From Isurus oxyrinchus (lineage: Eukaryota), in assembly GCA_026770705.1 (NCBI GenBank), contig JANJGN010000012.1, forward strand, positions 22,382,001-22,446,000: a stretch of DNA of 64,000 bases. The letters are read 5' to 3'. How positions within the stretch are numbered: position 1 is the stretch's first letter; the number at the start of each line of letters is the position of its first letter. The notes under the pieces are model-generated. The model saw only the letters and a program-made list of their open reading frames with translations, did no database searches and was not told where the DNA came from. Of this stretch, positions 3,637 to 46,214 are shown in pieces. The translations under genes and the position numbers were made by a program.

Positions 3637-4701
3637 AAGGACTTACATGTATATGGTACCTTTCATGACCTTGGGATGTCCCACTGCTCCCACAGCCAAC
3701 TTTTGACAAGCAGTCACTGTTGTAATGCAGGAATTGTGGCAGCCAATTCACGCATGGCAAGCTGCTACAAAAAGCAACATGATAATGTAATGACCGGCTA
3801 ATCTCTCAGCGATATTGATTGAGGGACAAACAATGGCCAGGACACCTGGGAGATTGGCACTGCTCTGCTTTCCACCCAAGCACACGGGATCTTTTGTGAA
3901 GGCAGACTGGAGCTCGAGTTAAGGTCACATCTGAAAGTGCAACAAGCGCGCGGTATTGCACTGGAGGCTCAGCCCAGATTTTGTGCTCAAGTCCCTGGCC
4001 AGAATTTTACGCCCTGTGGGCAGGCACGGGCCTGAACCAAACTTGTGCATAAAATCGCACAAGGTGATGTCAGGCGAGCGTCCTGACATCATCGCACGCT
4101 TGCGCGATATGTCGTTCGACGGGCGTGCGGAAAAGTCAGAAAAGCACCTGCCAACAATTAAGCGGGCAATTAAGCCCATTAACGTCCCAATTGTCAGCGA
4201 TTTCTCGTGGCCCGTCCAACCTTACGAATGGCGGACCGGCCAATCGGCCGGAGGGGCTTTACATTTTTGGTGAAACCTCATCCAAGGGCAGGATGAAATC
4301 TCCATTCGGATTTAAAATAAAAATGTATATATCTGGGGACTGTTTTTTTTTATGAGGCCTGCTTTCAGGTGCTTGATTGCGTTGCACGGACATTTTTTTG
4401 CAGCATTTTCTTATTTGCAGGTCTGTAGCTCCCTGAGGCAGCTGACTGCCTTCAGGGAGCTCTCTCGAAGCGCTCACCCGCACCCACGGTGACATCAGCG
4501 CCCGCCTTCTTCCCGCGCCCAACAGCAGTGCTGAGCCTCCCTCCGGGCCAGTCAGCATAAGATCGCGGGCTGGAGCGCACTTCACATCCGCTTTCAGGCA
4601 CGCCAAAGCACGTGCCAGGCAAGTGCAAATTTCAGGCCCTGGAATGGGAGGTGAGCCCACCATCTCCTAACTCAGGGTCAAGAGTGCTACCCACTGAGCC
4701 A
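3637..4701 (-). mobile_element. Deu-domain SINE split by a MITE
   Basis: SINE body at 3637-3997 resumes at 4639 ('ctggaatggga...agagtgctacccactgagcc'). Confidence 0.8.
3998..4638. mobile_element. Non-autonomous Harbinger-type MITE, CTG TSD
   Basis: Termini gccagaatttt / aaatttcaggcc, with CTG at 3995-3997 and 4639-4641. The left ~190 bp resembles the reverse complement of the Harbinger right end (41600-41801). Confidence 0.8.
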
Positions 4702-4893: not shown

Positions 4894-5374
4894 TCGCAAG
4901 AATTTTCCAACCTTAATGAGGGAGCATCAATTTATACTGCATGAGAGAGAGCTGATTGGTTGGCAAGTGGACTCTGACTGGTGGAGGCATTGCCATAGAG
5001 AATGGCCCATGGAACAGTCAACTGCCCAGCTTTGTTCAAATTCAAACCGGACAGGTTGACTCTGATTGGTCAAGGCATTGACCTGGGAACTGAGCCAGGG
5101 AGTGACTGTTCCCTAACCTTTCGTTTAGTTGAAAAAGGCACAATGTGTGGACATGCTCCTTCTGTCTGCAGAGGACAGGGCCTAGTGTGTGAAGATATGT
5201 GGCTTCTAGCATGTGTAAATGAGCCAAACTGAGAGCCTGACTGACAATCTTAAATTGGTTTTCAGTGTAATTCATAGCACAATCAGGATTGTTTAGCAGG
5301 TGTTGTCCAGTCATGGAATTACATCTAATGTTGGACATTATGCTTTGGGATTTGCAAACATGGGCTGGCTGAGT

Positions 5375-6655
5375 ATGAACATACGAAATAGGAGCAGAAG
5401 TAGGCCATTCAGCAATCTGCAAATTTAGCTACCAAGCCTTCACTCTCCTCATCTAAGGAATTGATATAAATTGTAAAAAGTTGAGGCCCCAGCACAGATA
5501 CCTGCGGGACTCTACTCATCACATCCTATCAATCAGCAAAGGTCTATTTTCACATACTCTCTGTTTTCTGCCAGCCAGCCAATCTTCTACCCATGCTAAT
5601 ATGTTACTCCCTACGGCGTGAGTTTTTATTTTCTGCAATAACATTTGATGTGGCATCTTATCAAATGCCTTCTGGAAATCCAAGTACAGTGCATCTACAG
5701 GCTCCCCTTTATCCACAGACCATGTTATTCTTTCAAAGAACTCCAAAACATTGGTTAAACATGATTTCCCTTTCACAAAACCTTGCTGACTCTTCCTGAT
5801 TATCTTCAGTTTCTCTAAGTGCCCAGTTATAACGTTCCTAATGATCGACTCTCACATCTTCCCTATGACAGACATCAAGCTAACTGGCCTATAGTTTCCT
5901 GTTTTCTGTCTCCCTCCCTTCTTGAATAGAGAGGTTATATTTGCTACTTTCCAGTCTGTTGGAGCCGTTCCAGAATCTAGTGAATTTTGGAAAATTAACA
6001 TCTACTACCACATTAGCCACTTCTTTTAAGACCCCAGGATGAAGTCCATCAGGATCTGGAGACTTGTCAGCCTGCAGCTCCTTCATTTCTTCTCCTGATC
6101 AATCTTTTAGTCATTCTCTGCCATTCTTTATATTCTGACCAATCATCTGACCTGCCACTTATCTTTGTGCAGTTATATGCTTTCTCCTTAAGTTTGATGC
6201 TTTCCTTAACTTCTTTAATTAACCACGGATCGTGGGCCCTCCCTTTAAAATTTTTATTTATAGTAGGAATATACTTATTCTAAGTATCTGATTCTGAAAT
6301 ATCCCCTTAAATGTCTGCCATTGCTTCTAGATTGATCTATTACCTATCCAAGTACCCCGGTTCACTTCAGCTAGCTCAGCTTTCATCTCCACATAGTTGT
6401 CCTTACTTAAGTTTAAGATACTAGTTTTAGACCCACCCTTCCCCCTTTCAAACTGGATGTAAAATTCAATCATATTGTGGTCGCTGCTACCTAGGGGTGC
6501 CTTTACTCTGAGGTCATTAATTAATCCAGTACGCAATACCAAGTCTAATATAACCTGCTCTCTGGTTGGTTCCAGAACATGCTGCTCTAAGAAACCATCT
6601 CGAAAGGACTCTAAGAACTCCTCATCCAGATTACTATTGCCAATCTGACTTTTCC
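5375..6655 (-). mobile_element. CR1 LINE ORF2 fragment, internally deleted
   Basis: KGKSCLTN.LEFFE...VD..YLDFQKAFDK.PH, KSP.PDGLHP.VLKE and LGSSDHNMIEF motifs. Confidence 0.9.
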
Positions 6656-7654
6656 AGTACGGTCAGTACTTTGCCTGTTGCGAACAGCTGAAGAGATGTA
6701 CTGTTTGGTACAATCCGCCAGTCTTTGGGACATATGGCCTACGTACATACCTGGCATCACACTGGCACTGAAACTCATATACCACATTATTCATTTGTGT
6801 GATAGGCAAAACATCTTTTTAGTTCGACAGCAGCATGCTGTTAGTGGAGCATAACACTTGTGTTGATACTGCATAGTAACAGCATGCCTTCACCTGTTGC
6901 CCAAATTTTTGAGACATCTTACCTTTCCAGGGTAATCTGAGGTAAACTGGGCACTTTTCAGGACCTAAAGTGGCAGCCTTAGGCCCGTTCATGAGTTTGC
7001 AGGATATACAGCAAGCAATGACGTGATCAGGGTAGCCATTATCCCGCAGGATGACTTTGATGCCCCTATTTCAGCATCAAGCATTCACGGTGAGCAAACG
7101 TCTTGGGCCCTATTTACAAGGTTGCCAATAAATTCAATCTTATAGTGCGTGAAACTACAAATCACAACACGTACATTGACCAGTGAAGGTAGGCTTGCGG
7201 TAAACAGTAGTAGAGAACACATTGGCAGGTTTTTCAATGTTCTGTAATTGGACAACACCAGCTGAACAATCCTGATTGTGTTAAGAATTATATTGAAAAC
7301 CAATTTAAGATTGTCAGTTGGCCTCGCAGTGTGGCTCACTTATGCATGCTAGAAGCCACATATATTCACACACAAGGCCCTGTCCATTGCAGACAGCATG
7401 TGCATACTTTGTGTCTTATTCAACTAAACAAAAGCTTAGGGAACAGTCATTCCCTGGTTCACTTCCCAGGGCAATGCTTTGACCAATCAGCGTCTACCTG
7501 TACGGTTTGAATTTGAACAAAGCTGGGCAGTTAACCGTTCCATGCTGCATTCTCCATGGCAATGCCTCCACCAGTCAGAGTCCACTTGTCGACCAATTGG
7601 CACGCTCTTCTCATGCGCAGTTGGAAAATTCTTGCGAGCCGAAAGCTTTGATAG

Positions 7655-9699: not shown

Positions 9700-12600
9700 T
9701 AACCCATTGCGAGTGACAACACATTGCAAGTGATAATGCATTGTGAGTCATAACGCATTACGAGTCATAATGCATTGTGAGTGATAATGCATTGTGAGTC
9801 ATAATGCTTTGTGAGTCATAATGCATTGCGAGTGATAGTGCATTGTGAGTGATAACGCATTGCGAGCAATAACTCATTGCGAGTGATAATGCATTGTGAA
9901 TCATAACGCTTTGTGAGTCATAACGCATTGCGAGTGATAATGCATTGTGAGTCATAATGCATTGTGAGAGAATGCATTGTGAGAGATAATGCATTGCGCA
10001 TGATAACGTATTGCGAGTGATAACACATTGTGAGTCATAACGCAATGCGAGTGATAATGCATTGTGAGTCATAACGCATTGCGAGTGATAATGCATTGTG
10101 AGTGATAACGCATTACAAGCGAAAACGCGTTGTGAGTCATAACACATTGTGAGTCATAATGCATTGCGAGTGATAATGCATTGTAGGTCATAATGCTTTG
10201 CGAGTGATAACACATTGTGAGTCATGATGCTTGTGAGTCATAACGCATTACGAGTGATAACGCATTGTGAGTCATAATGTATTGCGAGTGATAGTGCATT
10301 GCGATTGATAATGCTTTGTGAGTGATAATGCATCGTGAGTCATAATGCACTGCGAGTCATAAGGCATTGCGAGTGATAATGCATTGTGAGTCATAATGCA
10401 TTGCGAGCGATAACGCATTGTGAGTCATAATGCTTGTCAGTCATAATGCATTACGACTGATAATGCATTGCGAGTCACAATGCATTGTGAGTCATAATGC
10501 ATTGTGAGAGATAATGCATTGTGAGAGTTAATGCATTGCGTGTGATAACGTATTGCAAGCAATAACGCATTGTGAGTCATAACGCATTGCGTGTGATAAT
10601 GCATTGTGAGTCATAATGCATTGCGAGTGATAATGCATTGTGAGTGATAATACATTGTGAGTCATAATGCATGGCGAGACATGCATTGCGAGTGATAACG
10701 CATTTTGAGTCATAATGCATTGCGAGTGATAGTGCATTGCAAGTGATAATGCTTTGTGAGTGATAATGCATCGTGAGTCATAACGTATTGTGAGTCATAA
10801 GGCATTGCGAGTGATAATGCATTGTGAGTCATAACGCATTGTGAGCGATGACGCATTGTGAGTCATAATGCTTGTGAGTCATAATGCATTACGACTGATA
10901 ATGCATTGCGAGTCATAATGCATTGCGAGTCATAATGCATTGCAAGTGATAATGCACTGTGAGTCATAATGCATTGTGAGTCATAACACATTGCTAGTGA
11001 TAACGCATTGTGAGTCATAACGCATTGTGAGTGATAACGCATTGCGAGTGATAACGCATTGTGATTCATAACGCATTGCGAGTGATAATGCATTGTGAGT
11101 CATAACGCATTGCGAGTGATAATGCATTGTGAGTCATAATGTTTGTGAGGCATAACGCATTACGAGTGATAACGCATTGTGAGTCATAATACTTTGCGAG
11201 TGACAATGCATTACTAGTGGTAAGGCTTTGCGAGTCATAATGCATTGTGAGTGATAATGCATTGTGAGTCATAATGCACTGCAAGTGATAATGCATTGTG
11301 AGTGACAATGCATTGTGAGTCATAATGCATTGCGAGTCATAATGCATTGCGTTTCATAACGCGTTGCGAGTGATAATGCATTGTGAGTGATAATGCATTG
11401 TGAATCATAACGTTTTGTGAGTCATAACACATTGCGAGTGATAATGCATTGTGAGTCATAATGCTTTGTGAGTCATAATGCATTGCGAGTGATAACGCCT
11501 TGCGAGCAATAACTCATTGCGAGTGAGAATGCATTGCGAGCGATAACGTATTGCGAGTGATAACACATTGTGAGTCATAACGCTTTGAGTCATAACGCAT
11601 TGCGAGTGATAACGCATTGCGAGTCATAATGCATTGCAAGTGATAATGCATTATGAGTCCTAACTCATTGTGAGTGATAACGCATTGCGAGCGATAACGC
11701 ATTGCGAATGATAATACATTGTGAGTCATAATCCTTTGTGAGTCATAATGCATTGCGAGTGATAACGTATAGCGAGTGATAATGTATTGTGAGTCATAAC
11801 GCATTGTGAGTGATAATGCATTATGAGTCATAACGCATTGCGAGTGATAATGCATTGTGAGTCATAATGCTTGTGAGTCATAACGCATTACGAGTGATAA
11901 TGCATTGGGAGTCATAATGCATTGCAAGTGACAATGCATTGCGAGTGGTAAAGCTTTGCGAGTGATAATGCATTGCCAGTCATAATGCATTGTGAGTGAT
12001 AATGCATTGTGAGTCATAATGCATTGCGAGTCATAATGCATTGCGAATGATAACGCATTGCGAGTGATAACGCATTGTGAGTGATAACGCATTGTGTGTT
12101 ATAATGCATTATGAGTGATAACGCATTGTGAGTCATAATGCATTGCGAGTGATAACGCATTGCAAACAATAACGCTTTGTGAGTGATAATGCATTGTGAG
12201 TGATAATGCATTGCGAGCGATAACGCATTGCGAGTGATAAGGCATTGTGAGTGATAACGCATTGTGAGTCATAACGCTTTGTGAGTCATATCAATTTGCG
12301 AGTCATAATGCATTGTGAGTGATAATGCACGATGAGTGATAATGCATTGTGAGTCATAATGCATTGTGAGTCATAACGCTTTGTGAGTCATAACGCTTTG
12401 TGAGTCATAAGGCATTGCGAGTGATAATGCATTGTGAGTGACAATGCATTGTGAGTCATAATGCATTGCGAGTGATAACGCATTGCAAACAATAACGCAT
12501 TGTGAGTGATAATGCATTGTGAGCGATAACGCATTGTGAGTCATTATGCATTGTGAGTGATAACGCTTTGTGAGTCATAATGCATTGTGAGTCATAATGC

Positions 12601-15600
12601 ATTGCGAGTGATAATGCACTGTGAGTCATAATGTATTGCGAGTGATAATGCATTGTGAGTCATAATGCATTGCGAATGATAACACATTGTGAGTCATAAC
12701 ACATTGTGAGTCATAATGCTTTGTGAGTCATAATGCATTGCGAGTGATAACGCATTGCAAACAATAATGCATTGTGAGTGATAAAGCATTGTGAGTGATA
12801 ATGCATTGCGAGTGATAACGCATTGCAAGTGATAAGGCTTTGTGAGTGATAATGCATTGTGAGTCATAACGCTTTGTGCGTCATAACGCATTGCGAGTGA
12901 TAACGCATTGTGAGTGATAATGCATTGTGAGTCATAATGCGTTGCGAGTCATATCAATTTGCGAGTCAAAATGCATTGCGAGTGATAATGCACGATGGGT
13001 GATAATGCATTGTGAGTCATAATGCATTGTGAGTCATAACGTTTGTGAGTCATAACGCTTTGTGAGTCATAATGCATTGCGAGTGATAACGCATTGCAAA
13101 CAATAACGCTTTGTGAGTGATAATGCATTGTGAGTGATAATGCATTGCGAGCGATAACGCATTGCGAGTGATAAGGCATTGTGAGTGATAACGCATTGTG
13201 AGTCATAACGCTTTGTGAGTCATATCAATTTGCGAGTCATAATGCATTGTGAGTGATAATGCACGATGAGTGATAATGCATTGTGAGTCATAATGCATTG
13301 TGAGTCATAACGCTTTGTGAGTCATAACGCTTTGTGAGTCATAAGGCATTGCGAGTGATAATGCATTGTGAGTGACAATGCATTGTGAGTCATAATGCAT
13401 TGCGAGTGATAACGCATTGCAAACAATAACGCATTGTGAGTGATAATGCATTGTGAGCGATAACGCATTGTGAGTCATTATGCATTGTGAGTGATAACGC
13501 TTTGTGAGTCATAATGCATTGTGAGTCATAATGCATTGCGAGTGATAATGCACTGTGAGTCATAATGTATTGCGAGTGATAATGCATTGTGAGTCATAAT
13601 GCATTGCGAATGATAACACATTGTGAGTCATAACACATTGTGAGTCATAATGCTTTGTGAGTCATAATGCATTGCGAGTGATAACGCATTGCAAACAATA
13701 ATGCATTGTGAGTGATAAAGCATTGTGAGTGATAATGCATTGCGAGTGATAACGCATTGCAAGTGATAAGGCTTTGTGAGTGATAATGCATTGTGAGTCA
13801 TAACGCTTTGTGCGTCATAACGCATTGCGAGTGATAACGCATTGTGAGTGATAATGCATTGTGAGTCATAATGCGTTGCGAGTCATATCAATTTGCGAGT
13901 CAAAATGCATTGCGAGTGATAATGCACGATGGGTGATAATGCATTGTGAGTCATAATGCATTGTGAGTCATAACGTTTGTGAGTCATAACGCTTTGTGAG
14001 TCATAACGCATTGCGAGTGATAATGCATTGTGAGTGACAATGCATTGTGAGTGATAATGCATTGTGAGTCATAATGCATTGCGAGTCATAATGCATTACG
14101 CGTGATAACACACTGTGAGTCATAACGAATTGTGAGTCATAATGCATTGCGAGTGATAACGTATAGCGAGTGATAATGCATTGTGAGTCATAATGCATTG
14201 TGAGTGATAATGCATTGTGAGTCATAACGCATTGCGAGTGATAATGCATTGTGAGTCATAATGCTTGTGAGTCATAACGCATTACGAGTGATAATGCATT
14301 GGGAGTCATAATGCATTGCGAGTGACAATGCATTGCGAGTGGTAACGCTTTGCGAGTGATAATGCATTGCCAGTCATAATGCATTGCGAGTGATAATGCA
14401 TTGTGAGTCATAATGCATTGCGAGTCATAATGCATTGCGAATGATAACGCATTGCGAGTGATAACGCATTGTGAGTGATAACGCATTGTGTGTCATAATG
14501 CATTATGAGTGATAACGCATTGAGTCATAATGCATTGCGAGTGATAGTGTATTGTGAGTCATAATGCTTTGTGAATCATAATGCATTGCGAGCGATAACG
14601 CATTGCGAGTGATAAGGCATTGAGTGTGATAATGCATTGTGAGTCATAACGCTATGTGCGTCATAACGCATTGTGAGTGATAACGCATTGTGAGTGATAA
14701 TGCATTGTGAGTCATAACGCTTTGTGAGTCATATCAATTTGCAAGTCATAATGCATTGTGAGTGATAATGCACGATGAGTGATAATGCATTGTGAGTCAT
14801 AATGCATTGTGAGTCATAACGCTTTGTGAGTCATAACGCTTTGTGAGTCATAACGCATTGCGAGTGATAATGCATTGTGAGTCATAATGCATTGTGAGTC
14901 ATAATGCATTGCGAGTCATAATGCATTGCGAGTCATAATGCATTGTGAGTCATAATGCATTGCGAGTGATAATGCACTGAGTCATAAAGTATTGCGAGTG
15001 ATAATGCATTGTGAGTCATAATGCATTGCGAGTGATAACACATTGTGAGTCATAATGCATTGTGAGTCATAATGCTTTGTGAGTCATAATGCATTGCGAG
15101 TGATAACGCATTGCAAACAATAACGCATTGTGAGTGATAATGCATTGTGAGTGATAATGCATTGCGAGCGATAACGCATTGCGAGTGATAAGGCATTGTG
15201 AGTGATAATGCATTGTGAGTCATAACACTTTGTGCGTCATATCAATTTGTGAGTCATAATGCATTGTGAGTGATAATGCACGATGCGTGATAATGCATTG
15301 TGAGTCATAATGCATTGTGAGTCATAACGCTTTGTGAGTCATAACGCTTTCTGAGTCATAACGCATTGCGAGTGATAATGAATTGTGAGTGACAATGCAT
15401 TGTGAGTCATAGTGCATTGCGAGTCATAATGCATTGCGAGTCATAATGCACTGCACGTGATAACACATTGTGAGTCATAACGCATTGTGAGTCATAACAC
15501 ATTGTGAGTCATAATGCATGGCGAGCAATAACTCATTGCGAGTGATAATGCATTGTGAGTCATAACACTTTGTGAGTCATAATGATTTCAGAGTCATAAT

Positions 15601-18600
15601 GCATTGTGAGTGATGATGCACGATGAGTGATAATGCATTGTGAGTCATAATGTATTGTGAGTCATAACGCTTTGTGAGTCATAAAACTTTGTGAGTCATA
15701 ACGCATTGCGAGTGATAATGCATTGTGAGTGACAATGCATTGTGAGTCAATGCATTGCGAGTCATAATGAATTGCGAGTCATAATGCATTGTGAGTCATA
15801 ATGCATTGCGAGTGATAATGCATTGAGTCATAACGTATTGCGAGTGATAATGCATTGTGAATCATAATGCATTGCGAGCAATAACTCATTGCGAGTGATA
15901 ATGCATTATAAGTCATAACGCTTTGTGAGTCATAACGCATTGTGAGTAATAATGCATTGTGAGTGATAATGCATTGTGAGTGATAATGCATTGCGAGCGA
16001 TAACGCATTGCGAGTGATAACACTCTGTGAGTCATAACGTTTGTGAGTGATAATGCATTGTGAGTCATAACTCATTGTGAGTGATAACGCATTGTGAGCG
16101 ATAACGCATTGCGAGTGATAATGCATTGTGAGTCATAATCCTTTGTGAGTCATAATGCATTGCGAGTGATAATGCATTGTGAGTCATAATGCATTGTGAG
16201 TCATAATGCATTGCGAGTCATAATGCATTGCGAGTCATAATGCATTGTGAGTCGTAATGCATTGCGAGTGATAATGCACTGAGTCATAAAGTATTGCGAG
16301 TGATAATGCATTGTGAGTCATAATGCATTGCGAGTGATAACACATTGTGAGTCATAATGCATTGTGAGTCATAATGCTTTGTGAGTCATAATGCATTGCG
16401 AGTGATAACGCATTGCAAACAATAACGCATTGTGAGTGATAATGCATTGTGAGTGATAATGCATTGCGAGCGATAACGCATTGCGAGTGATAAGGCATTG
16501 TGAGTGATAATGCATTGTGAGTCATAACACTTTGTGCGTCATATCAATTTGTGAGTCATAATGCATTGTGAGTGATAATGCACGATGCGTGATAATGCAT
16601 TGTGAGTCATAATGCATTGTGAGTCATAACGCTTTGTGAGTCATAACGCTTTCTGAGTCATAATGCATTGCGAGTGATAATGAATTGTGAGTGACAATGC
16701 ATTGTGAGTCATAGTGCATTGCGAGTCATAATGCATTGCGAGTCATAATGCACTGCACGTGATAACACATTGTGAGTCATAAAGCATTGTGAGTCATAAC
16801 ACATTGTGAGTCATAATGCATGGCAAGCAATAACTCATTGCGAGTGATAATGCATTATGAGTCATAACGCTTTGGGAGTCATAACGCATTGCGCGTAATA
16901 ATGCATTGTGAGTGATAATGCGTTGTGAGTGATAATGCATGCGAGCGATAACGTATTGCGAGTGATAACGCTTTGTGAGTCATAACGCTTTGTGAGTGAT
17001 AATGCATTGTGAGTCATAATGCTTTATGAGTCATAAGGCATTGCGAGTGATAATGCATTGTGAGTCATAATGCATTGTGCGAGATAAAGAATTGTCAGAG
17101 ATAATGCATTGTGCATGATAACGTATTGCGAGCGATAACACATTGTGAGTCATAACGCAATGCGAGTGATAACGCATTGCGAGTGATAATGCATTGTAGG
17201 TCATAATGCTTTGCGAGTGATAACACATTGTGAGTCATAATGCTTGTGAGTCATAACGCATTACGAGTGATAACGCATTGTGAGTCATAATGCATTGCGA
17301 GTGATAGTGCATTGCAATTGATAATGCTTTGTGAGTGATAATGCATCATGAGTCATAACGCATTGCAAGTCATAAGGCATTGCGAGTGATAATGCATTGT
17401 GAGTCATAATGCATTGCGAGCGATAACGCATTGTGAGTCATAATGCTTGTGAGTCATAATACATTACGACTGAAAATGCATTGCGAGTCATAATGCATTG
17501 TGACTCATAATGTATTGTGAGAGATAATGCATTGTGAGAGTTAATGCATTGCATGTGATAACGTATTGCAAGCGATAATGCATTGTGAGTCATAACGCAT
17601 TGCGAGTGATAATGCATTGTGAGTGATAACGCATTATGAGTGGTAACACGTTTTGAATCATAATGCATTGCGAGTCATAATGCATTGCAAGTCATAATGC
17701 ATTGCGAGTGATAACGCATTGCGAGTGATAACGCATTGTGAGTAATAACGTATTGTGAGTCATAACGCATTGCGAGTGATAACGCATTGCGAGCAATAAC
17801 TCATTGCGAGTGATAATGCATTGAGTCATAATGCATTGTGAGAGATAATGCTTTGTGAGAGATAATGCATTGCGCATGATAACATATTGCGAGCGATAAC
17901 ACATTGTGAGTCATAACGCAATGCGAGTGATAATGCATTGCGAGCGATAACGCATTGTGAGTCATAATGCTTGTGAGTCATAATGCATTGCGAGCAATAA
18001 CGCATTGTGAGTGATAATGCATTGTGAGTCATAACGCATTGCGAGTGATAATGCATTGTGAGTCGTAATGCTTATGAGTCATAACGCATTACGAGTGATA
18101 ACGCATTGTGAGTCATAATGCATTGCGAGCGATAACGCATTGCGAGTCATAATGCATTGTGAGTCATAATGCATTGTGAGAGATAATGCATTGTGAGAGT
18201 TAATGCATTGCGTATGATAACGTATTGCGAGCGATAACGCATTGTGAGTCATAACGCATTGCGATTGATAACGCATTGTGAGTGATAATGCATTGTGATT
18301 CATAACACTTTGTGAGTCATGACGCTTTGTGAGTCATAACGCATTGCGAGTGATAATGCATTGTGAGTGATAACGCATTACGAGTGATAATGCGTTTTGA
18401 GTCATAATGCATTGCGAGTCATAAGGCATTGCGAGTCATAATGCATTGCGAGTGATAATGCATTGCGAGTGATAATGCACTGAGTCATAATGCATTATGA
18501 CTCATAACACATTGCTAGTGATAACGCATTGCGAGTCATAATGCATTACGCGTGATAACACACTGTGAGTCATAACGCATTGTGAGTGATAATGCATTGC

Positions 18601-21600
18601 GAGTGATAACGTATAGCGAGTGATAATGCATTGTGAGTCATAACGCATTGTGAGTGATAATGCATTGTGAGTCATAACGCATTGCGAGTGATAATGCATT
18701 GTGAGTCATAATGCTTGTGAGTCATAACGCATTACGAGTGATAATGCATTGGGAGTCATAATGCATTGCGAGTGACAATGCATTGCGAGTGGTAACGCTT
18801 TGCAAATGATAATGCATTGCCAGTCATAATGCATTGCGAGCTAATAATGCATTGTGAGTCATAATGCATTGCGAATCATAATGCATTGCGAATGATAACG
18901 CATTGCGAGTGATAACGCATTGTGAGTGATAACGCATTGTGTGTCATAATGCATTATGAGTGATAACCATTGTGAGTCATAATGCATTGCGAGTGATAGT
19001 GTATTGTGAGTCATAATGCTTTGTGAGTCATAATGCATCGCGAGCGATAACGCATTGCGAGTGATAAGGCATTGAGAGTGATAATGCATTGTGAGTCATA
19101 ACGCTTTGCGCGTCATAACGCATTGTGAGTGATAACGCATTGTGAGTGATAATGCATTGTGAGTCATAACGCTTTGTGAGTCATATCAATTTGCGAGTCA
19201 TAATGCATTGTGAGTGATAATGCACGATGAGTGATAATGCATTGTGAGTCATAATGCATTGTGAGTCATAACGCTTTGTGAGTCATAACGCTATGTGAGT
19301 CATAACGCTTTGTGAGTCCTAACGCATTGCGAGTGATAATGCATTGTGAGTCATAATGCATTGTGAGTCATAATGCATTGCGAGTCATAATGCATTGCGA
19401 GTCATAATGCATTGTGAGTCATAATGCATTGCGAGTGATAATGCACTGAGTCATAAAGTATTGCGAGTGATAATGCATTGTGAGTCATAATGCATTGCGA
19501 GTGATAACACATTGTGAGTCATAATGCATTGTGAGTCATAATGCTTTGTGAGTCATAATGCATTGCAAGTGATAACGCATTGCAAACAATAACGCATTGT
19601 GAGTGATAATGCATTGTGAGTGATAATGCATTGCGAGCGATAACGCATTGCGAGTGATAAGGCATTGTGAGTGATAATGCATTGTGAGTCATAACACTTT
19701 GTGCGTCATATCAATTTGCGAGTCATAATGCATTGTGAGTGATAATGCACGATGCGTGATAACGCTTTGTGAGTCATAACGCATTGCGCGTAATAATGCA
19801 TTGTGAGTGATAATGCGTTGTGAGTGATAATGCATGCGAGCGATAATGCATTGCAAGTGATAACGCTTTGTGAGTCATAACGCTTTGTGAGTGATAATGC
19901 ATTGTGAGTCATAATGCTTTATGAATCATAACGCATTGCGAGTGATAATGCATTGTGAGTCATAACGCTTTGTGAGTCATAATGCATTGCGAGTGATAAT
20001 GCATTGTGAGTGATAATGCATTGCGAGCGATAACGCATTGCGAGTGATAACACTTTGTGAGTCATAACGCTTTGTGAGTGATAATGCATTGTGAGTCATA
20101 ATGCTTTGTGAGTCATAACGCATTGGAAGTGATAACGCATTGCGAGCAATAACTCATTGCGAGTGATAATGCATTGTGAGTCATAATGCATTGCGAGTCA
20201 TAAAGCATTGCGAGTGATAATGCATCGTGAGTCATAACGCATTGTGAGTGATAATGCATTGTGAGTCATAACGCATTGCGAGTGATAATGCATTGTGAGT
20301 CATAATGCTTGGGAGTCATAACGCATTATGAGTCATAATGCATTGTGAATCATAATGCATTGCGAGTGACAATGCATTGCGAGTGGTAACGCTTTGCGAG
20401 TGATAATGCATTGCCAGTCATAATGCATTGCGAGTGATAATGCATTGTGAGTCATAATGCATTGCGAGTGATAACGCATTGCGAGTGATAACGCATTGTG
20501 AGTCATAATGCATTGCGAGTGATAACGCATTGCGAGTAATACAGCATTGTGAGTCATAATGCTTTGTGAGTCATAATGCATTGCGAGTGATAACACATTC
20601 TGAACAATAACGCATTGTGAGTAATAACACAGTGAGTGATAATGCATTGCGAGAGATAACGTATTGCGAGTGATAACGCATTGTGAGTGATAATGCATTG
20701 TGAGTCATAACGCTTTGTGAGTCATAATGATTTCAGAGTCATAATGCATTGTGAGTGATGATGCACGATGAGTGATAATGCATTGTGAGTCATAATGTAT
20801 TGTGAGTCATAACGCTTTGTGAGTCATAAAACTTTGTGAGTCATAACGCATTGCGAGTGATAATGCATTGTGAGTGACAATGCATTGTGAGTCAATGCAT
20901 TGCGAGTCATAATGAATTGCGAGTCATAATGCATTGTGAGTCATAATGCATTGCGAGTGATAATGCATTGAGTCATAACGTATTGCGAGTGATAATGCAT
21001 TGTGAGTCATAATGCATTGCGAGCAATAACTCATTGCGAGTGATAATGCATTATAAGTCATAACGCTTTGTGAGTCATAACACATTGTGAGTAATAATGC
21101 ATTGTGAGTGATAATGCATTGTGAGTGATAATGCATTGCGAGCGATAACGCATTGCGAGTGATAACACTCTGTGAGTCATAACGTTTGTGAGTGATAATG
21201 CATTGTGAGTCATAACTCATTGTGAGTGATAACGCATTGTGAGCGATAACGCATTGCGAGTGATAATGCATTGTGAGTCATAATCCTTTGTGAGTCATAA
21301 TGCATTGCGAGTGATAATGCATTGCGAGCGATAATGCATTGCGAGTGATAACACTTTGTGAGTCATAACGCTTTGTGAGTGATAATGCATTGTGAGTCAT
21401 AATGCTTTGTGAGTCATAACGCATTGCGAGTGATAACGCATTGCGAGCAATGATTCATTGCGAGTGATAATGCAATGTGAGTCATAACGCTTTGTGAGTC
21501 ATAACGCATAGCGAGTGATAACACTTTGTGAGTCATAACGCTTTGTGAGTGATAATGCATTGTGAGTCATAATGCTTTGTGAGTCATAACGCATTGTGAG

Positions 21601-24600
21601 TGATAACGCATTGCGAGCAATAACTCATTGCGAGTGATAATGCATTGTGAGTCTAAAAGCATTGCGAGTCATAACGCATTGCGAGTTATAATGCATTGTG
21701 AGGCATAACACATTGCAAGTGATAACGCATTGCGAGTGATAATGCATTGTGAGTCATAACTCATTGTGAGTGATAACGCATTGTGAGTGATAACGCATTG
21801 CGAGTGATAATGCATTGTGAGTCATAATCCTTTGCGAGTCATAATGCATTGCAAGTGATAATGCATCGTGAGTCATAATGCATTGAGAGTGATAACGCAT
21901 TGTGAGCAATAACTCATTGCGAGTGATAATGCATTGTGAGTCATAACGCTTTGTGAGTCATAACACATTGCGAGTGATAATGCATTGTGGGTCATAATGC
22001 ATTGTGAGAGATAATGCATTGTGAGAGATAATGCATTGCGCATGATAACATATTGCGAGCGATAACACATTGTGAGTCATAACGCAATGCGAGTGATAAT
22101 GCATTGCGAATGATAATGCATTGTGAGTCATAACGCTTTGTGAGTCATAAGGCTTTGTGAGTCATAACGCATTGCGAGTGATAATGCATTGTGAGTCATA
22201 ATGCATTGCGAGCGATAACGCATTGTGAGTCATAATGCTTGTGAGTCATAATGCATTACGACTGATAATGCATTGCGAGTCATAATGCATTGTGAGTCAT
22301 AATGCATTGTGAGAGATAATGCATTGTGAGAGTTAATGCATTGCGTGTGATAACGCATTGCGAGTGATAATGTATTGTGAGTCATAATCCTTTGTGAGTC
22401 ATAATGCATTGCGGGTGATAATGCATAGCGAGTGATAACGCATTGTGTCATAATGTATTATGAGTGATAAGGCATTGTGAGTCATAATGCATTGCGAGTG
22501 ATAGTGCATTGTGAGTGATAACGCATTGCGAATAATAATGCATTGTGAGTCATAATGCTTTGTGAGTCATAATGCATTGCGAGTGATAACGCATTGCGAA
22601 CAATAACGCATTGTGAGTGATAATGCATTGTGAGTGATAATGCATTGTGAGCGATAACGCATTGCGAGTGATAAGGCTTTGTGAGCGATAATGCATTGTG
22701 AGTCATAACACTTTGTGCGTCATAACGCATTGCAAGTGATAATGCATTGTGAGTGATAATGCATTGTGAGTCATAACGCTTTGTGAGTCATATCGACTTG
22801 CGAGTCATAATGCATTGTGAGTGATAATGCACGATGAGTGATAATGCATTGTGAGTCATAACGCTTTCTGAGTCATAACGCTTTGTGCGTCATAAAGCAT
22901 TGCGAGTGATAATGCATTGTGAGTGACAATGCATTGTGAGTCATAATGCATTGTGAGTCATAATGCATTGCGAGTCATAATGCATTGTGAGTCTTAGTGC
23001 ATTTCGAGTGATAATGAATTGTGAGTCATAATGTATTGCGAGTGATAACTCATTGCGAGTGATAATGCATTATGAGTCATAACGCTTTGTGAGTCATAAC
23101 GCTTTGTGAGTGATAATGCATTGTGAGTCATAATGCTTTGTGAGTCATAACGCATTGCGAGTGATAACGCATTGCGAGTCATAACGCATTGCGAGTTATA
23201 ATGCATTGTGAGGCATAACACATTGCAAGTGATAACGCATTGCAAGTGATAATGCATTGTGAGTCATAATGCATTGCGAGTGATAACGCATTGCGAGTGA
23301 TAACGCATTGTGTGTCATAATGCATTATGAGTGATAACGCATTGTGAGTCATAATGCATTGCGAGTGATAATGCATTGCGAGTAATAATGCATTGTGAGT
23401 CATAATGCTTTGTGAGTCATAATGCATTGCGAGTGATAACGCATTGCAAACAATAACGCATTGTGAGTGATAATGCATTGTGAGTGATAATGCATTGCGA
23501 GCAATAACGCATTGCGAGTGATAACGCATTGTGAGTGATAATGCATTGTGAGTCATAACGCTTTGTGAGTCATAACGCATTGCGAGTGATAACGCATTGT
23601 GAGTGATAATGCATTGTGAGTCATAACACTTTGTGAGTCATAACGATTTCAGAGTCATACTGCATTGTGAGTGATAATGCACGATGAGCGATAATGCATT
23701 GGGAGTCATAATGCATTGTGAGTCATAACGCTTTGTGAGTCATAATGCTTTGTGAGTCATAACGCATTGCGAGTGATAATGCATTGTAAGTGACAATGAA
23801 TTGTGAGTCATAATGCATTGCGAGTCATAATGCATTGCGAGTGATAATGCATTGAGTCATAATGCATTGCGAGTGATAATGCATTGTGAGTCATAATACA
23901 TTGCGAGTGATAACACATTGTGAGTCATATCCCATTGTGAGTCATAACGCATTGCAAGTGATAATGCATTGTGAGTGATAATGCATTGTAAGTGATAATG
24001 CATTGCGAGCAATAACATATTGCGAGTGATAACGCATTGTGAATCATAACGTTTTGTGAGTCATAACGCATTGAGAGTGATAACGCATTCTGTGTGATAA
24101 TGCATTGTGAGCGATAACGCATTGCGAGTGATATCACATTGTGAGTCATAACACTTTGAGTCATAACGCATTGCGAGTGATAATGCATTGCGAGTCATAA
24201 CGCATTGCGAGTGATAATGCATTGTGAGTCATAACTCATTGTGAGTGATAACGCATTGTGATAACGCATTGCAAGTGATAATGCATTGTGAGTCATAATC
24301 CTTTGTGAGTCATAACGCATTGTGAGTGATAATGCATTGTGAGTCATAACGCATTGAGACTCATAATGCATTGTGAGTCATAATGCTTGTGAGTCATAAC
24401 GCATTATGAGTCATAATGCATTGTGAGTCATAATGCATTGCCTGTGACAATGCATTGCGAGTGGTAACGCTTGGCGAGTGATAATGCATTGCCAGTCATA
24501 ATGCATTGCGAGTGATAATGTATTGTGAGTCATAATGCATTGTGAGTGATAACGCATTGCGAGTGATAATGCATTGCGAGTAATAATGCATTGTGAGTCA

Positions 24601-37225: not shown

Positions 37226-37334
37226 TGTAATGCCTGTTTTGGGGATCCTGCTGTGCCGGTGTGCTTCTATTAACTCATTGAGGAAGCTTCAAAGAGATGG
37301 CATCACCATTAAGTGTCATCACTCTCACCTCTGA

Positions 37335-37600
37335 CCCAGGAAAGATAAGGGTTTGAGCCTCCATTGCGGGACTTGAGCACAAAATGCATTCCCACACTCT
37401 AGCGCCCTCCTGAGCTGCACAGTTGAATGCGCCATCTTTCAGGTGAGGTGTTTAATGAAGATTTTGTCTGCCTTTTATGATGGATGGAGTAGATACTATT
37501 TTAAAGAGGAATGTGGAGTTCTTTTCATGTACTGGCCAATATTTTTCTCTCACTTAACATCAACCAGTTCTCATCTGTGAGATCTGGATCACTGTCTTAT
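37335..37600 (+). mobile_element. Deu-domain SINE fragment
   Basis: 'gggtttgagcc...gacttgagcacaaaat...gccatctttcaggtgagg'. Confidence 0.65.
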
Positions 37601-37919
37601 TTGCTCTCTCGCCTTTGGTTCAGAAGGTCATGGGTTCAAATCCAACTCCAGTGGCAGAGTTTTCAGTTCGGCAGGCGGGCAGTGTTGGCAGGCCTGGGAT
37701 CGGCCGGGAAACGGACCACCACCCACAATCGGCCCCCGACTGCGATTTCACGCCGGCGGGTCAATTGAAGGCCTGCCCAGCGTGAAACGAGGCTCCTCGC
37801 TGGTCGAGATGGCTAGACGGGGTCCTGTTGGCCTCCAGATGCAATGGTGACCTGGCCTAGGCAGCCCCTTGAAGGCTGCCACAGAAGAACGTCCGTTCTG
37901 TGCCTTCAGCATTCAAGTT

Positions 37920-39738
37920 ATGGAGTCGGATGAAGCTGGAGACACCAGGCGGGAGGGCAGGTTGGGTGGGCATTCAGCTGCCCGCTTTTTGGATGAGTGC
38001 CTCGTGGTCTTCCTGGAGGAGGTGGCTGCCAGGAGGGACACACTTGTTCCTGGAGCTGGGAGAAGGAAGACACTGCACCTCACCAAGAGGGATGGGAGGA
38101 GGTTGCAGCGCTGGTTAGCAGCCATGATGTGGCGTGGCACACATGGGTGCAGTGCCGGAAGAGGTTCAATGAACTGCTGCACAGAGGAAGGGTGAGTACC
38201 GTGTTGGCATGGGTCAGTACAGAAGGCACGGCCATCCCCCCACCCCCCGTAGAGCTCAGGGGTGTTAGAGCCTGAGTGCCAACTGTCAATGATGCCAGAG
38301 CTGGCCAAGGGGGTGAGCCCAGCTGCTTGGACAGAGTGTCTTGCGGCTCGAGGGCCACGACTGGGATGTGCCCTGTGAGGTGCTCCTCAGCTGGGGTTGA
38401 CCAGGCTGCAATGGTGTTGCAGGTAGAGAGTGGACTAATCAATGCTCCTCTGTCCTTCCAGGAGAAGCCATAACCAATCAGAGAGGCCACATACAGGCGG
38501 AGGCCCTGCCCAACCTACTGCTGCTGACCTGGTTTGAGCAGGACGCCCTTGAGCTGGAGAGCTGGCCACTCCACGAGCAACCGAGCATGGAGAGGCGGGG
38601 GTGCCAGAGGTGATAGTTTCGGATTGGACAGCCATTCTAGTGTAGTCTCTTTATTGATGGGATCCTCAAACCTGGAGTCCCCATTGATCACTGAAAGACA
38701 ATGGCACCATGATGCAGATCTCCATTGTCTCACCAGGGTGCCTGGCATGCACGGTGACAGTGTGGTGACTTTAACTAAAGGCATGTCCTTCTTCTCCCTT
38801 ACATTCGCCAGCACACACTCACTCTCTGGAGCCCCAAAAGGCCACCCCAAACACTGGAGGACCACGGGGCTTCATTTGCACCTACGTCACACCCACTCTC
38901 TGAACCAGGCACTAGCGCAGATACCAGCACCTCGGTGGGCATTAGATTGGCAGCTAGAATGCAGGTGCACATCGGTGAGGGCACTTCACACTCGCATGAG
39001 GTGCAGGTGGAGGCAGTGAGTGCCCAGGGTGCCAGTATGCAGAGAACTGCTGGGAACCAGGACGATGCTGATTCTAAGGCAGATAATGAGCCTCTGGAAT
39101 CATCCATTAGGTGGCAGATGCGGGATATGTGGGAGGATCTGGCGGATATTCATGAGGATCTGCATGTCATGGTCTCCATTGTGGAGGAGTCCATGGGGAG
39201 CATAATCACTGCATTGACCCTCACGGCTGAGTGCAATGCCTCCTCCATTGAGAAAGTGGTGATTCTCATGGAGAAGCAGTACCAGGAACAGAATCAGGGG
39301 TCCCTGGGATTACGCCTGGACCTGCAAACCCTCACGCAATTGGTCAGTGCCAGTATGGGAGATGGATAAGGCACCCAGTATCCCAGCTAGGGGCCCGTCC
39401 ATCAATGGTGAGCAGGGAGGTCCAGAGCAGCCTCGTATTGGCACACAAGATGTTTGTCGTCTCTGTGGCCTCCTCTCAGGGCACTCTGCATGATGGCAGC
39501 AGCTCCTCCGCCCCTCCACCAGTGACCGTGGCATCTGATGAGACTGTAATGACTGGGGAAATGCCAGCCATGGCATCCCATGGAGGGGCCAGCACAGGCT
39601 CCAATGGCCAGAGGATAATCACCAAGGTCATCAAGGCCATCAAGACGCCAGAGTAAACAGGCAGTCTCCAATGCCGGTGCCAGCGAGCAGGGAGCGCCTA
39701 GGTGCAGCACTCGGGAACATAAGTTAAAGGCACCATGA
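37920..39738 (+). pseudogene. Harbinger Myb/SANT-like (trihelix) DNA-binding protein gene, spliced and frameshifted
   Basis: ARF.DE.L..FLEEV..RRD.L, a frameshift, then W.EVA..VS......TW.QCRKRFNEL. Predicted intron 38192-38461 (GTGAGT...ccttccAG); coiled-coil-like acidic ORF at 38935-39369. The 3' end is approximate. Confidence 0.8.
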
Positions 39739-40071
39739 ACACAAGAGGGACGGTTCACGGGTGATTTTCTGTCCATTTATGTTTGGTTTATTTGTCTGCT
39801 GGTGTAGACATCAGCACCAGTAATGGTAATGTCATTATGCTTTCAATGTGACAATAGCATTAAATTTGCTTTGGTTCTGATGGTCTGAGTATGCTTCACC
39901 TTTTTGTTTTATTGGTGCAGGGTACACCAGTGTGTAATGCCAGACGTGAATGGCTGGATACTTTATTGCACAGGCATTGAGTGGACTTTGGGTGCAAATA
40001 AAAGAGTCATTTCAGACATCCAGGATGGTGGCGGCAGCCCTGGCATGAGGTAGAACCAGATATTTGGCAGC

Positions 40072-41283
40072 CTAGCTGAAGGAGTGTTGGATCAAAGTGT
40101 CCCTGGTGTCCCTGCCTCCCTGGAGGTTACCGAGGTCTGCCTCCACATCCTCATTATTCTCCTCACCGTGCTCCTCTTCTGACTCACCACTGGATTCATC
40201 ATCTGTAGCCTGTGCAGCTGTGTCAAGATCCTCATCCTCCAGTGGGTGCCCCCTTGCCAGTGCCAGATTGGAGATCGCAGCATGCAGTCACTATCAGTGA
40301 CTCCCTCTCTAGGGGGTATTGCCGCTGAACGGTCCAGGCATCAGAAGCGCATCTTGAAAAGACCTATGTTCCTCTCTATCACCGCCGTTGTTGAGGCATG
40401 ACTCCTCTTTTAACGCTGCTCTGCTCTGCCTCTGTTCTTGTGTGGCGGAGAGGTGTCATGAGCCTCCACTTCCATAGATAGCCCTTGTCACCCAGCAGCC
40501 ATCTATCCAGTCGGGCTGGAGCACTGAAGATCCTCGGCACCTGGGAGTGTCTCAGGATGTAAGCATCATGGGAGCTACCTGAGTACCTTGCACAGACTTG
40601 CAGAATCTGCATCCTGTGATCACACACTATTTGCACATTCATAGAATGGAATCCCTTCCTGTTGACCTGCTGGTGCCTTGATGGCCACATGTGTGTAGTC
40701 GATGGCACCCTGGACACGGGGGAACCAACAATCGCTGCAAAGCCTCTGGCTCGCTCAGCCTGGCTGGCCTCATCCATATGGTAAAGAACAGAGGTCACTA
40801 CCTGCCTGAACAGAGCTTCTGTCACCTGCTTGACGCAAGTGTGGACAGCTGATTGGGAGACCCCACACAGATCCCCCACTGACCCCTGGAAAGAGCTGGA
40901 GGCATAGAAGTTGAGGGCCACTGTGACCTTCAGAGCCACTGGCATGGAATGTCCACCCACACAGCCAGAGCTGATCTCAGGCCCAATCATCTGACAAATG
41001 GAGGTCACTGTCTCTCTTGAGAGGTGGAGCCTCCTTCGGCATTGTACCTCAGACATATTGAGGTAGCTGCATCGCCACCTGTAAACCCTGGCAGCAGGAT
41101 GGTGGGGTCTTCTTTGGCCCTCCTACCTTGGACTTCCTGCTGGCCTGTGCCCTTTGTGCCTGCACCTTTCCTCCCTTAGTTTCCTCCCCTGGAAGCTGCT
41201 TTGGGACCCGAGGCCTCCTCTCCCTTCTGCCCCTCTCTTCCTCCTCAGAGGAGGTGCCTCCAGCGGAGGACCACAATCCCCAT
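40072..41283 (-). pseudogene. Harbinger/HARBI1-like DDE transposase, frameshifted with stops
   Basis: GAID.TH (shifted frame), NRKGFHSMNVQIVCD, GSSHDAYIL, WLLGDKGY, IERNIG.FKMRF*, C-terminal RDTLIQHSFS*. Longest remaining ORF is 40379-41056. Confidence 0.92.
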
Positions 41284-42897
41284 TACCAGTGTTTATAGAA
41301 GGCTGTCTGATACCTGGAAGGGCCCACATGGTCTGAATCCTCCAGGGCCTGGAGACACCAATAAACCCTGAAATGAAGCCTGGAAATGCTAAGAACGAAG
41401 CCCTGAACAGAGATGAAGCTGGCCAAGTACCAATTAGCAACCAGCAGCAAACTGTCCTCTAAACTCCTCAGCACTCACATCGGCAATGCTGCTGACCCTT
41501 TTTATCCCGCCCTTGGATGAGGTTTAGCAAATTGGCGGCTGCCTGCCTGCCCATTTTGCCTGTGCGGTGAGCCTACATATCACACAGGTAATGTAACATA
41601 CAGCTTAATTGCCTTTTTAATGGCCTTAACTGGCCTCGTAATTGACGGCGGGCACAGCTCCGACTCCAGCTCAATGCCCGCCGACCGAAATAGCGCACAA
41701 GTGCGCGATGTCGTTGAGACATTGGCCCGATGTCACCGCATGTTATTTTACGTTTGAGCAAGTCAGGCACACACCAGCCCACTCAGCGAAAAATTCTGCC
41801 CCAGGGACTTCAGCCCACATTCCAGGCTGTCGCTCCTAGTACAGCGCTGGGGGAATGCCGTGCTGTTGGAGGTGCCATCTTTCCATAAGACATCAAACTG
41901 AGGTCTCATCTCCTCTCCCAGATGACCATAAAAGGTCCCATGGATGAAAAGCAGGTGGAGTTCTCTCCGGTGTCCTGGCCTACATTTAATCAACATCACT
42001 CGAACATATTACCTGCCCATTATCACTTTGCACTTTGTGGGAGCTTGCTGTGCACAAATTGCTGCTGTTTCCCACATTACAACAGTGACTATACTTCAAA
42101 AGTACTTCGCTGGCTGTAAAACACCATGAGATGTCCAGTTGTTATGAAAGGCATTTAAGAAAGCCCTTCTTTTATTTCATATTGTCTCCTTTCCTTTTAA
42201 CTTGTATTGCAAAATATTTCCCGGCAGACACAGGCCATTCGGCCCAACTGGTCCATGCTGGTGTTCATGCTCCACAAGAGCCTCCTCCCACGTACCCCTC
42301 TTGATCTCACCTCATCAACATATCCTCTATTCCTTTCGCCTGCATCTCTTTACTGGGGTATTTTATCTCATTCTGTGCCGTTGCAGTGAAAGAAAACACT
42401 CTGCACATACATTGGTGCCTGCTCTCACTCCTTGCAAGCTCTTATCTGAACACAAATTTAATGATTCCGAATAATTAGTCACTTCTGCGCCTCCAGGTTT
42501 AATTGGGACTGCCAGTAAATAGATTACAGAAATAAGATAGAAGTAACAAGGAAAATTGAAATAATCAGAGCAGTGCCATCACAGAATCCCAAACTGCAAA
42601 TGATTATTGATTTGCATTTGCAGTTTGTTTCCGGTATGCTTATTCTCGGGCTGCAGTTACTGCCATTTGTTACCCATTCCTGCCTTCCCCTTGAGAAGTT
42701 GGTGAACTTTCTTCTTGACCCACCACCGCCTGTGCAATGCTCTCACACGCTGCTAGGTTTTATTCAGCACAGCAGGGTTTTTTTTTGATATGACCGAGTG
42801 GCTTTTTTTGCTTCCTCAGAGGGCATTTCTCAGTCAGCCGTGTTGGTGTGGGACTGGAGTCCCCTATAGGTCCAAACTGGGTACAGACAGCAGCTAT

Positions 42898-45058: not shown

Positions 45059-46214
45059 TATGGTGCAGACTCAGCCTAACTTAACGTTAATGATTCAGAT
45101 GGGACCTCCCCCGCCTTCTCCCCCTCACGTCACTTCCTCATCGAAAATGTCACTAATTGGTAAGCCTGAACATAAAAAAGTAATCACAGGAATTTCTCTT
45201 GGGAAGATCAGCAAAGGATGAAGCTGATGTGGAATTTAACTGTCAGTATGATACCATCAGATCGCAAAATCACTACTGACATTTCCTTCGCAATCACATC
45301 ACTGGAAGTGGGAGAGTTTTTGTCTCAGAAATTGTTCCTCACAGTATAAATGAAAAGATAAAAAATTAATTAGCATTCTGTAACAGACATTGAAGAAGTG
45401 TTGGGTGTAATAAATTAGTTCGCCCTCTGAAAGACCAGCTTGTTTCGAGATCAATTTGATATGATGAAATCTTGCTTAAAATCAAAACCGTTTTAAATCA
45501 AGCTTTTTCATTTACCGTCGCCTGTGGCTGTTTGCAATCAAATTTCCTTCATGCACCACAATACATTAATCAGATCAGTGTGAGGGAGAAAAAAAAAGAG
45601 TGCAAATCACCCCTTCAGAATAACTAACAAGCCAGCACTTTAAGCAAGAGAAAATTAACTCGCTTATTGCTTTGGCAAAAAAAAAACTGAGAAATAAGAA
45701 TCTGAGAAAAAGTACATAAGGTTTGAATCCTGAACCCACAGGAATTGGGACATATCATAGTCAGTGGGGTGAGGGCAAGTTTCGTTCCTTCCTATCACTA
45801 ACAGCCTCAGCTGCGGCTCAGTGGCAGCGCTCTCAGTCAGAAGGTTGTGAGCTCAAGTCCTTAACCTTGGTGCTGTCATTATGGGTGTATTGCTTCTCTA
45901 AGGATCCTGAATTAAAGTTATCTCCTGTCTCCAGAACTTGGCATATGGGTGTCGGTGGGTAGCACTTTTGCCTTCTGGGTTAGAATATTGTGTGCTCGAG
46001 TACAATTCCAGAGACTTGAGCACAAACCTAGGCTGACACTCTCAGTACTGAGGGAGTGCTGCACTCCTTTTAAGTGCTACTTTCTGGATGAGGCGTTAAG
46101 TGAGGTCCTGTCTGTTCCCTCAAGCGGATACAGAAGATCCCAACGCCAATTTTGAAGAAAAGCCGGACTTTGCCTGGTGGCCTGAGCCAACGTTTATCCC
46201 TTAAGCAGCATCAA

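What the first reader, a model, noticed from the sequence alone, without database searches (positions are those of the whole stretch)
3995..4641. MITE inserted at the same SINE nucleotide as the autonomous Harbinger 34 kb away
Seen: in SINE orientation this locus reads tcccattcCAG[MITE]CAGggacttgagcac, and the 37652 locus reads tccaactcCAG[Harbinger]CAGggacttcagccc. Both duplicate the same CAG just 3' of the B-box, in the same relative orientation. An empty site is visible at ~46009. The MITE shares only one end with the Harbinger and the flanks differ, which argues for independent events. Established: zebrafish Harbinger3_DR has a CWG TSD and an extended target preference. Inference: this family may preferentially target an abundant SINE head as a safe haven. 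The sample is only two events.
Basis: partly seen in the sequence, partly recalled or inferred. Interest (0 to 1): 0.7.

Follow-up and report, generated by a model that had tools for sequence, protein, structure and literature searches.

The report
Harbinger hot spot inside a SINE
Many unrelated cut-and-paste transposons in this genome landed on the same three letters of an old short repeat, but they are well under 1% of all copies, and the spot likely attracts them only because it spells the short DNA pattern their enzyme prefers, which is ordinary behaviour.

Summary
A 642-bp MITE and a broken 4,150-bp Harbinger sit at the same CAG of two separate SINE copies. The hot spot is real genome-wide: 14 of 18 and 24 of 45 element ends near the SINE head fall on this one offset of 31, and 30 such elements form 20 sequence clusters, in both orientations. 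The safe-haven reading fails. About 0.1-0.5% of ~106,000 exact ends are there; 0 of 199 unselected ends and 0 of 58 closest relatives. These elements duplicate HWD (CWG ~7.5%) and prefer a palindromic flank of about 15 bp. A one-base SINE variant that spoils the right half-site loses the hot spot (13:0 filled against 24:42 empty) and is hit 7 nt away. A LINE and a second SINE hold similar hot nucleotides. Half-site rates measured outside the SINE leave a residual of 1.6-1.9x (95% 0.45-6.9). Nested hot spots and extended PIF/Harbinger target preference are in print, and the scan noted like cases in other genomes (e1-9293555, e1-9805955).

The parts
3997..4638 (+). Harbinger-type MITE, 642 bp, 12-bp imperfect TIRs; family of several thousand copies
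   Evidence: (8,976 first-look candidates, 40 scored)
4639..4641 (-). TSD copy (CAG in SINE orientation)
3995..3997 (-). second TSD copy; shares one G with the TIR, so one base is missing at this junction
4642..4700 (-). 5' half of host SINE 1 (tRNA-like head with decayed B-box; B-box label recalled)
3660..3994 (-). 3' part of host SINE 1
37652..41801 (.). full-length broken Harbinger element, 4,150 bp
40379..41122 (-). transposase remnant (DDE_Tnp_4, E 2.6e-13)
37997..38275 (+). Myb/SANT-like remnant (weak, E 0.026, below Pfam cut-off)
37649..37651 (+). TSD CAG, left
41802..41804 (+). TSD CAG, right
37600..37648 (+). 5' half of host SINE 2
41805..42170 (+). 3' part of host SINE 2
45945..46200 (+). 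empty SINE copy; CAG at 46009-46011 followed by A (weak site, matrix score 1.6)
37310..37570 (+). second empty SINE copy, CAG lost by mutation (matrix score 0.2 or less)

Best explanation
Harbinger-type transposons of this genome inserted again and again at one CAG in an old SINE head, likely because that spot matches the palindromic target their transposase prefers and not because they seek the SINE. Shown: the ends duplicate HWD and prefer G at +1, T or A at +2, G or T at +3, T at +4 and T or C at +5 on each side. Shown: the common head variant CCACTC-CAG-GACTTG has two good half-sites and is filled; the variant with one extra A after the CAG is almost never filled there and is hit at a TTG 7 nt further on. 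Inferred: the two-protein transposase (Myb-like protein plus DDE enzyme) reads this motif directly in target DNA, and any abundant repeat that carries a good match turns it into a single-nucleotide hot spot. Inferred: the SINE copies were already diverged and largely dead when the insertions came. The two window sites are extra-base heads in which that base is G, which restores the key +1 position.
For: Target matrix from 170 unselected exact ends. Variant test: 13 short-variant against 0 extra-A filled sites, while empty heads are 24:42 in the first 100 rows (hand tally), Fisher p 1.3e-5; 13:1 with the window MITE counted, p 1.6e-4. Sites picked on the upstream side only: 18:1 among those whose far junction could be read, against 28:18 empty (first 100 rows, hand tally), p 0.007. 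The TTG site has 7 hits, all in extra-base heads (p 0.003). On real empty heads the matrix gives CAG 10.5 in the short variant against 1.8 in the extra-base variant, and +7 0.04 against 6.9. Matched control: CAG-GACTT sites are filled 18x above uniform outside heads and 385x inside, a ratio of 22 (10-54); the upstream half-site measured outside heads and LINEs predicts 12-14; residual 1.6-1.9. Other repeats have hot nucleotides too: a second SINE (35 of the first 100 of 108 rows at one offset, two more hot offsets, about 240x, 98-768) and a LINE-like repeat (26 of the first 100 of 265 rows against 7-10 for the head, about 85x). 20 clusters among 30 inserted elements, both orientations. Coding-type elements are not enriched at the head (5 of 22 against 25 of 121, p 0.78). 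SINE heads are 75% identical to their majority, MITEs 87.5%.
Against: The simple matrix under-predicts badly: 7-18x (bootstrap 4-51) against an observed 644x (330-1,200) for the short variant and 209x for all heads. Only the empirical two-half estimate closes the gap, and its upper bound leaves up to about 7x. On real heads the matrix ranks offsets +14 and +15 as high as the CAG, yet one search shows 0 and 1 hits there. Per copy the head is the hottest of the three repeat sites measured. The window's own two sites are of a rare class (extra base G; matrix 1.8 and 13), so two in one window is rarer than my estimate of 0.25-4.6 such windows per genome, which counted all filled heads. Denominators rest on hand tallies of the first 100 rows, all from the start of contig C1, and on 4 background copies for the second SINE.
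Confidence: 0.78

Rival explanations
1. Sequence preference plus a local boost: a Pol III factor on the B-box, or the 8-bp inverted repeat that ends at this CAG, would make the site several times more accessible.
For: The residual over the two-half model is 1.6-1.9 with an upper bound near 7. The head is the hottest site per copy. The short variant has a perfect TCAAGTCC/GGACTTGA inverted repeat (seen in the sequence), and the window's empty head folds into an 11-bp stem as RNA. Predicted +14/+15 sites are not hot.
Against: The residual includes 1. The extra-base variant keeps the B-box and a 7-bp inverted repeat yet loses the CAG site. Other offsets near the head run at only 0.13 and 0.48 hits per offset, near the uniform expectation. 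Hot sites of like size occur in a LINE-like repeat and in another SINE. An old host repeat exposed to every burst would give a similar small excess (inference).
Confidence: 0.14
2. An evolved safe-haven strategy: the family, or one subfamily, aims at this SINE head as Dada elements aim at small-RNA genes.
For: At least two full-length copies of one family (window, L349) and further coding-type copies (L430, L431, L434) sit at this nucleotide.
Against: 0 of 29, 0 of 29 and 0 of 199; about 0.1-0.5% of all elements; 20 clusters among 30 elements, the largest with 4; no excess of coding copies.
Confidence: 0.04
3. The filled heads descend from one or a few SINE-plus-transposon composites copied by retrotransposition or segmental duplication.
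For: A few duplicate pairs exist among the hits (L363 and L368 share flanks).
Against: Inserted elements range from about 115 to 4,232 bp, fall in 20 clusters and lie in both orientations, in at least two SINE bodies. The window's hosts are 65% identical with unrelated flanks.
Confidence: 0.02

Closest known systems
Zebrafish Harbinger3_DR (known here through passages of PMC3016246 and PMC2836001; the primary paper was not held)
   Same: Two genes (Myb-like and DDE), short TIRs, 3-bp TSD, palindromic target preference of about 15 bp. The printed consensus AAACACCWGGTCTTT shares 10 of 15 letters with the hot SINE site and the same C-TSD-G core.
   Different: Here the TSD is a broad HWD (CAT/ATG, ATA/TAT, AAT/ATT, CAA/TTG lead; CWG about 7.5%), the preference is statistical, and it is pooled over many dead families.
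Nested-insertion hot spots of human TEs (Levy, Schwartz, Ast; PMC2836564, abstract and passages read)
   Same: DNA transposons reuse single positions in older SINEs in both orientations (MER1 in MIR3 at positions 154 and 160); motifs in the target repeat are proposed as the cause.
   Different: Other superfamily and host; here a one-base SINE variant acts as a natural test of the motif.
Plant PIF/mPIF and Ping/mPing (PMC2836001, passages read)
   Same: Long element plus MITEs sharing ends; extended target preference.
   Different: 9-bp preference in plants; here informative positions reach +5 or +6 on each side.
Dada DNA transposons (PMC3706591, abstract and passages read)
   Same: A DNA transposon found at a fixed nucleotide in a Pol III-type multicopy sequence.
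   Different: Dada is strictly targeted, has 6-7 bp TSDs and, for the U1 and U6 families, no TIRs; here over 99% of copies are elsewhere, with TIRs and 3-bp TSDs.

Membership tests
PIF/Harbinger superfamily | DDE transposase of the DDE_Tnp_4 type | tested here: met
   E 2.6e-13, above cut-off
PIF/Harbinger superfamily | second gene with Myb/SANT-like domain | tested here: inconclusive
   Myb_DNA-bind_4 E 0.026, below cut-off; the frame is broken
PIF/Harbinger superfamily | 3-bp TSD and short TIRs | tested here: met
   (55 end pairs with identical 3-bp TSD)
PIF/Harbinger superfamily | extended palindromic target preference | tested here: met
Harbinger3_DR-type CWG specificity | TSD CWG | tested here: not met
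   6 of 170 sampled ends; 6,994 ends genome-wide, about 7.5%
Target-specific DNA transposon (Dada-like) | most copies lie in the one target | tested here: not met
   0 of 29, 0 of 29, 0 of 199
Target-specific DNA transposon (Dada-like) | fixed nucleotide inside the target | tested here: met
   14 of 18 and 24 of 45 at one offset, with a second site at +7
Target-specific DNA transposon (Dada-like) | 6-7 bp TSD | tested here: not met
   3-bp TSD
SacSINE1 / DeuSINE (host repeat) | tRNA-derived head plus Deu domain, by match to the published consensus | not testable with these tools
   The likeness is recalled. PMC5499810 passages describe the family in sharks, but its supplement with the alignments could not be read. 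ARAGORN finds no tRNA gene in the window.

The most novel reading that the evidence does not exclude
On top of its sequence preference the Harbinger transpososome is drawn up to several-fold to Pol III B-box heads or to the hairpin that ends at this CAG: an early, partial step from loose target preference toward Dada-like targeting, visible as about 2% filled copies in one SINE variant.
Probability: 0.12. Interest if true: 0.6.

Novelty: new member of a known kind. Interest (0 to 1): 0.28.

Why it matters
Two things are of modest use. About 106,000 exact ends allow a precise natural target map for vertebrate Harbingers, and the one-base SINE variant is a ready in-genome control for it. Recurrent insertion at one nucleotide also means that such nested insertions are prone to homoplasy as phylogenetic markers (inference). 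If a residual B-box or hairpin effect proved real, it would show how strict targeting of multicopy Pol III sequences can begin.

Tried and rejected
One duplicated insertion: rejected. Fixed orientation: rejected. CWG as the family TSD: rejected. Enrichment of coding copies at the head, suggested: rejected. The second SINE as a far hotter site, suggested by 3 of 100 rows: the genome count gave about 37 ends at that offset (35 in the first 100 of 108 rows), a hot spot of the same order. A plain position matrix as a full account: it finds the CAG and +7 sites but under-predicts their size and over-predicts +14/+15. A real tRNA gene at the site: none. Blast-based junction reading failed for 10 of 25 upstream-picked loci; longer stretches resolved three of them, and unreadable, deleted or ambiguous junctions were left out of the 13:1 and 18:1 counts. 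The background includes a few filled heads from selected loci, so its head count was not used. Papers: the primary Harbinger3_DR paper was not held; the SacSINE1 supplement could not be read. Searches (listings and abstract starts only) showed no report of this hot spot in a cartilaginous fish; that library lacks most subscription journals and Repbase reports. Read-laying, folding and protein-database searches were not used.

Full report
Setting. The window is G000:C12:22382001-22446000 of a 4.98-Gb animal genome. Its repeats look shark-like to me (recalled; earlier scan notes on this genome say the same). The genome was searched with 12 queries and sampled through 448 loci. Pattern counts are whole-genome; only the first 100 rows are printed, and tallies from rows were made by hand.

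1. The observation. The long element spans 37652-41801 with CAG on both sides. It holds a broken transposase on the - strand (DDE_Tnp_4, E 2.6e-13) and a weak Myb-like remnant on the + strand (E 0.026). The MITE family's ends are GGCCAGAATTTT and AAAATTCAGGCC, which puts the window copy at 3997-4638; its left junction lacks one base, so the CAG duplication there is inferred with a 1-nt loss. The MITE matches the long element over 188 nt at one end (65%). Both lie in the same SINE family at the same CAG. The hosts are 65% identical and the outer flanks are unrelated apart from short patches. The empty head at 46009 is there, with A after the CAG where both filled sites have G.

2. Is the nucleotide a hot spot? 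Yes. Ends within 30 nt upstream of the SINE motif GACTTGAGCAC: 18 hits, 14 at one offset. Ends within 30 nt downstream of TTCAAGTCCC: 45 hits, 24 at the same CAG and 7 at a TTG 7 nt on. p is about 1e-16 and 1e-22. Thirty elements with both junctions read (28 from loci plus the window's two) form 20 clusters at 70% identity over 60% of the length, and members of one cluster lie in both orientations. L349 is a 4,187-bp sister of the window's long element (76% over 4 kb) at the same nucleotide of a sister SINE, reversed. These are independent insertions by many families.

3. Is the SINE the family's target? No. There are 87,482 exact 12-mer ends under the pattern (control 340), about 106,000 as 11-mers. 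None of 29 closest MITE relatives, none of 29 closest relatives of the long element's end (27 coding-type) and none of 199 ends not selected on their flank is at the site. Scaling by assumed motif survival gives 0.1-0.5% of elements. Coding-type copies are 5 of 22 at the head and 25 of 121 elsewhere. SINE heads are more diverged (median 75% to majority, n = 17) than the MITE family (87.5%, n = 30), so the hosts were likely old when hit.

4. What draws the insertions. 170 unselected exact ends give a TSD of HWD (131 of 170; CWG 6 of 170) and a flank of G (0.61), T or A (0.52, 0.29), G or T (0.38, 0.28), T (0.64), T or C (0.38, 0.33), T (0.42). Genome-wide, 6,994 ends carry CWG, about 1.6x background. 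The head comes in a short form, CAG-GACTTG, and a form with one extra base, CAG-AGACTT. Among empty heads these are 24 and 42 of the first 100 rows and, with the sister SINE, 28 and 18 of the first 100 rows. Filled sites are 13 short against 0 extra-A (p 1.3e-5; 13:1 with the window MITE), and 18:1 among upstream-picked sites with a readable far junction (p 0.007). The TTG site is hit 7 times, always in the extra-base form (p 0.003). On real empty heads the matrix scores the CAG 10.5 (short, n = 10) against 1.8 (extra base, n = 8) and the +7 site 0.04 against 6.9. A tether at a fixed distance from the B-box would not move with this base; a sequence reader would (inference). The window fits: both filled sites have G at +1 and the two empty heads score 1.6 and 0.2 or less, although the MITE site itself scores only 1.8 today.

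5. Is sequence enough? The plain matrix predicts 7-18x (bootstrap 4-51) but 644x (330-1,200) is seen for the short form and 209x for all heads. It also ranks +14/+15 highly on real heads, where 0 and 1 hits are seen. A matched control does better. Of 63 ends followed by CAGGACTT about 39 are in heads and 24 are not; of 108,726 such sites 8 of the first 100 rows are heads. That gives 385x inside, 18x outside, ratio 22 (10-54). The upstream half-site, measured on the 61-62 of the first 100 of 265 ends that are neither head nor LINE against background, predicts 12 (four positions) or 14 (six). Other repeats behave alike: about 240x (98-768) at one CAT of a second SINE and about 85x (51-144) at one CTG of a LINE-like repeat. 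A boost of a few-fold at the head is not excluded.

6. Two in one window. With 200-850 filled heads, 0.25-4.6 windows of 64 kb per genome should hold two (assumed survival rates). The window's pair is of a rarer class (extra base G), so the figure for exactly this pair is lower. A reader would notice a pair at any of several hot spots, and that selection was not modelled.

7. Comparison with the known. Extended target preference is a defining trait of PIF/Harbinger: 9 bp in plants and 15 bp in vertebrates (PMC2836001, passages); Harbinger3_DR integrates into AAACACCWGGTCTTT (PMC3016246, passage). Single-position hot spots of DNA transposons inside older SINEs, used in both orientations, are reported for human TEs (PMC2836564, abstract and passages). 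Dada elements are the strict case and differ in TSD, ends and share of copies on target (PMC3706591, abstract and passages). The host resembles SacSINE1 (recalled; PMC5499810 passages; supplement not readable, so membership is untested). My searches listed no report of this particular site. Two earlier scan notes on other genomes reached the same reading; I looked them up after forming mine.

8. Verdict. The coincidence is real and marks a strong single-nucleotide hot spot, but the family does not target the SINE. It is a new instance of a known kind. Interest 0.28. The chance that a B-box or hairpin adds a true boost is about 0.12.

Noticed in passing
window 9705-28208: An 18.5-kb satellite of about 1,093 copies of a 17-bp unit, 81% matches; one search also lists inverted matches within it.
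   Followed up: no
window 4944-7608: A 2.7-kb stretch bounded by inverted repeats of about 375 bp (85-87% complementary), with no open frame over 128 codons; likely another dead DNA transposon.
   Followed up: partly
window ~46350-46470: A mini element of about 120 bp with Harbinger-type ends, like the 115-118 bp class seen; no clean TSD.
   Followed up: partly
genome-wide: 25 of 121 unselected exact ends lead into Harbinger coding sequence within 1.4 kb, which implies on the order of 10,000 long copies with an exact end; a very large load of full-length Harbingers.
   Followed up: partly
L109-L138 and rows: A second SINE has three hot nucleotides for the same ends within 30 bp (offsets 4, 22 and 29-30).
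   Followed up: partly
L377-L392 and rows: A LINE-like repeat (CR1 label recalled) has a hot CTG with 26 of the first 100 rows.
   Followed up: partly
L155, L164, L349, L360, L361, L367: A sister SINE shares the same head up to the hot CAG but has a different body, and is filled at the same nucleotide.
   Followed up: partly
rows (L418, L420, L427): 6 of 100 rows share the same continuation after the TIR-like motif plus CAG: either another hot spot or an internal motif of a repeat.
   Followed up: no
window 45986-46030: The SINE head folds as RNA into an 11-bp stem (-15.4 kcal/mol, no shuffle control) with the hot CAG at the loop's 3' edge.
   Followed up: partly
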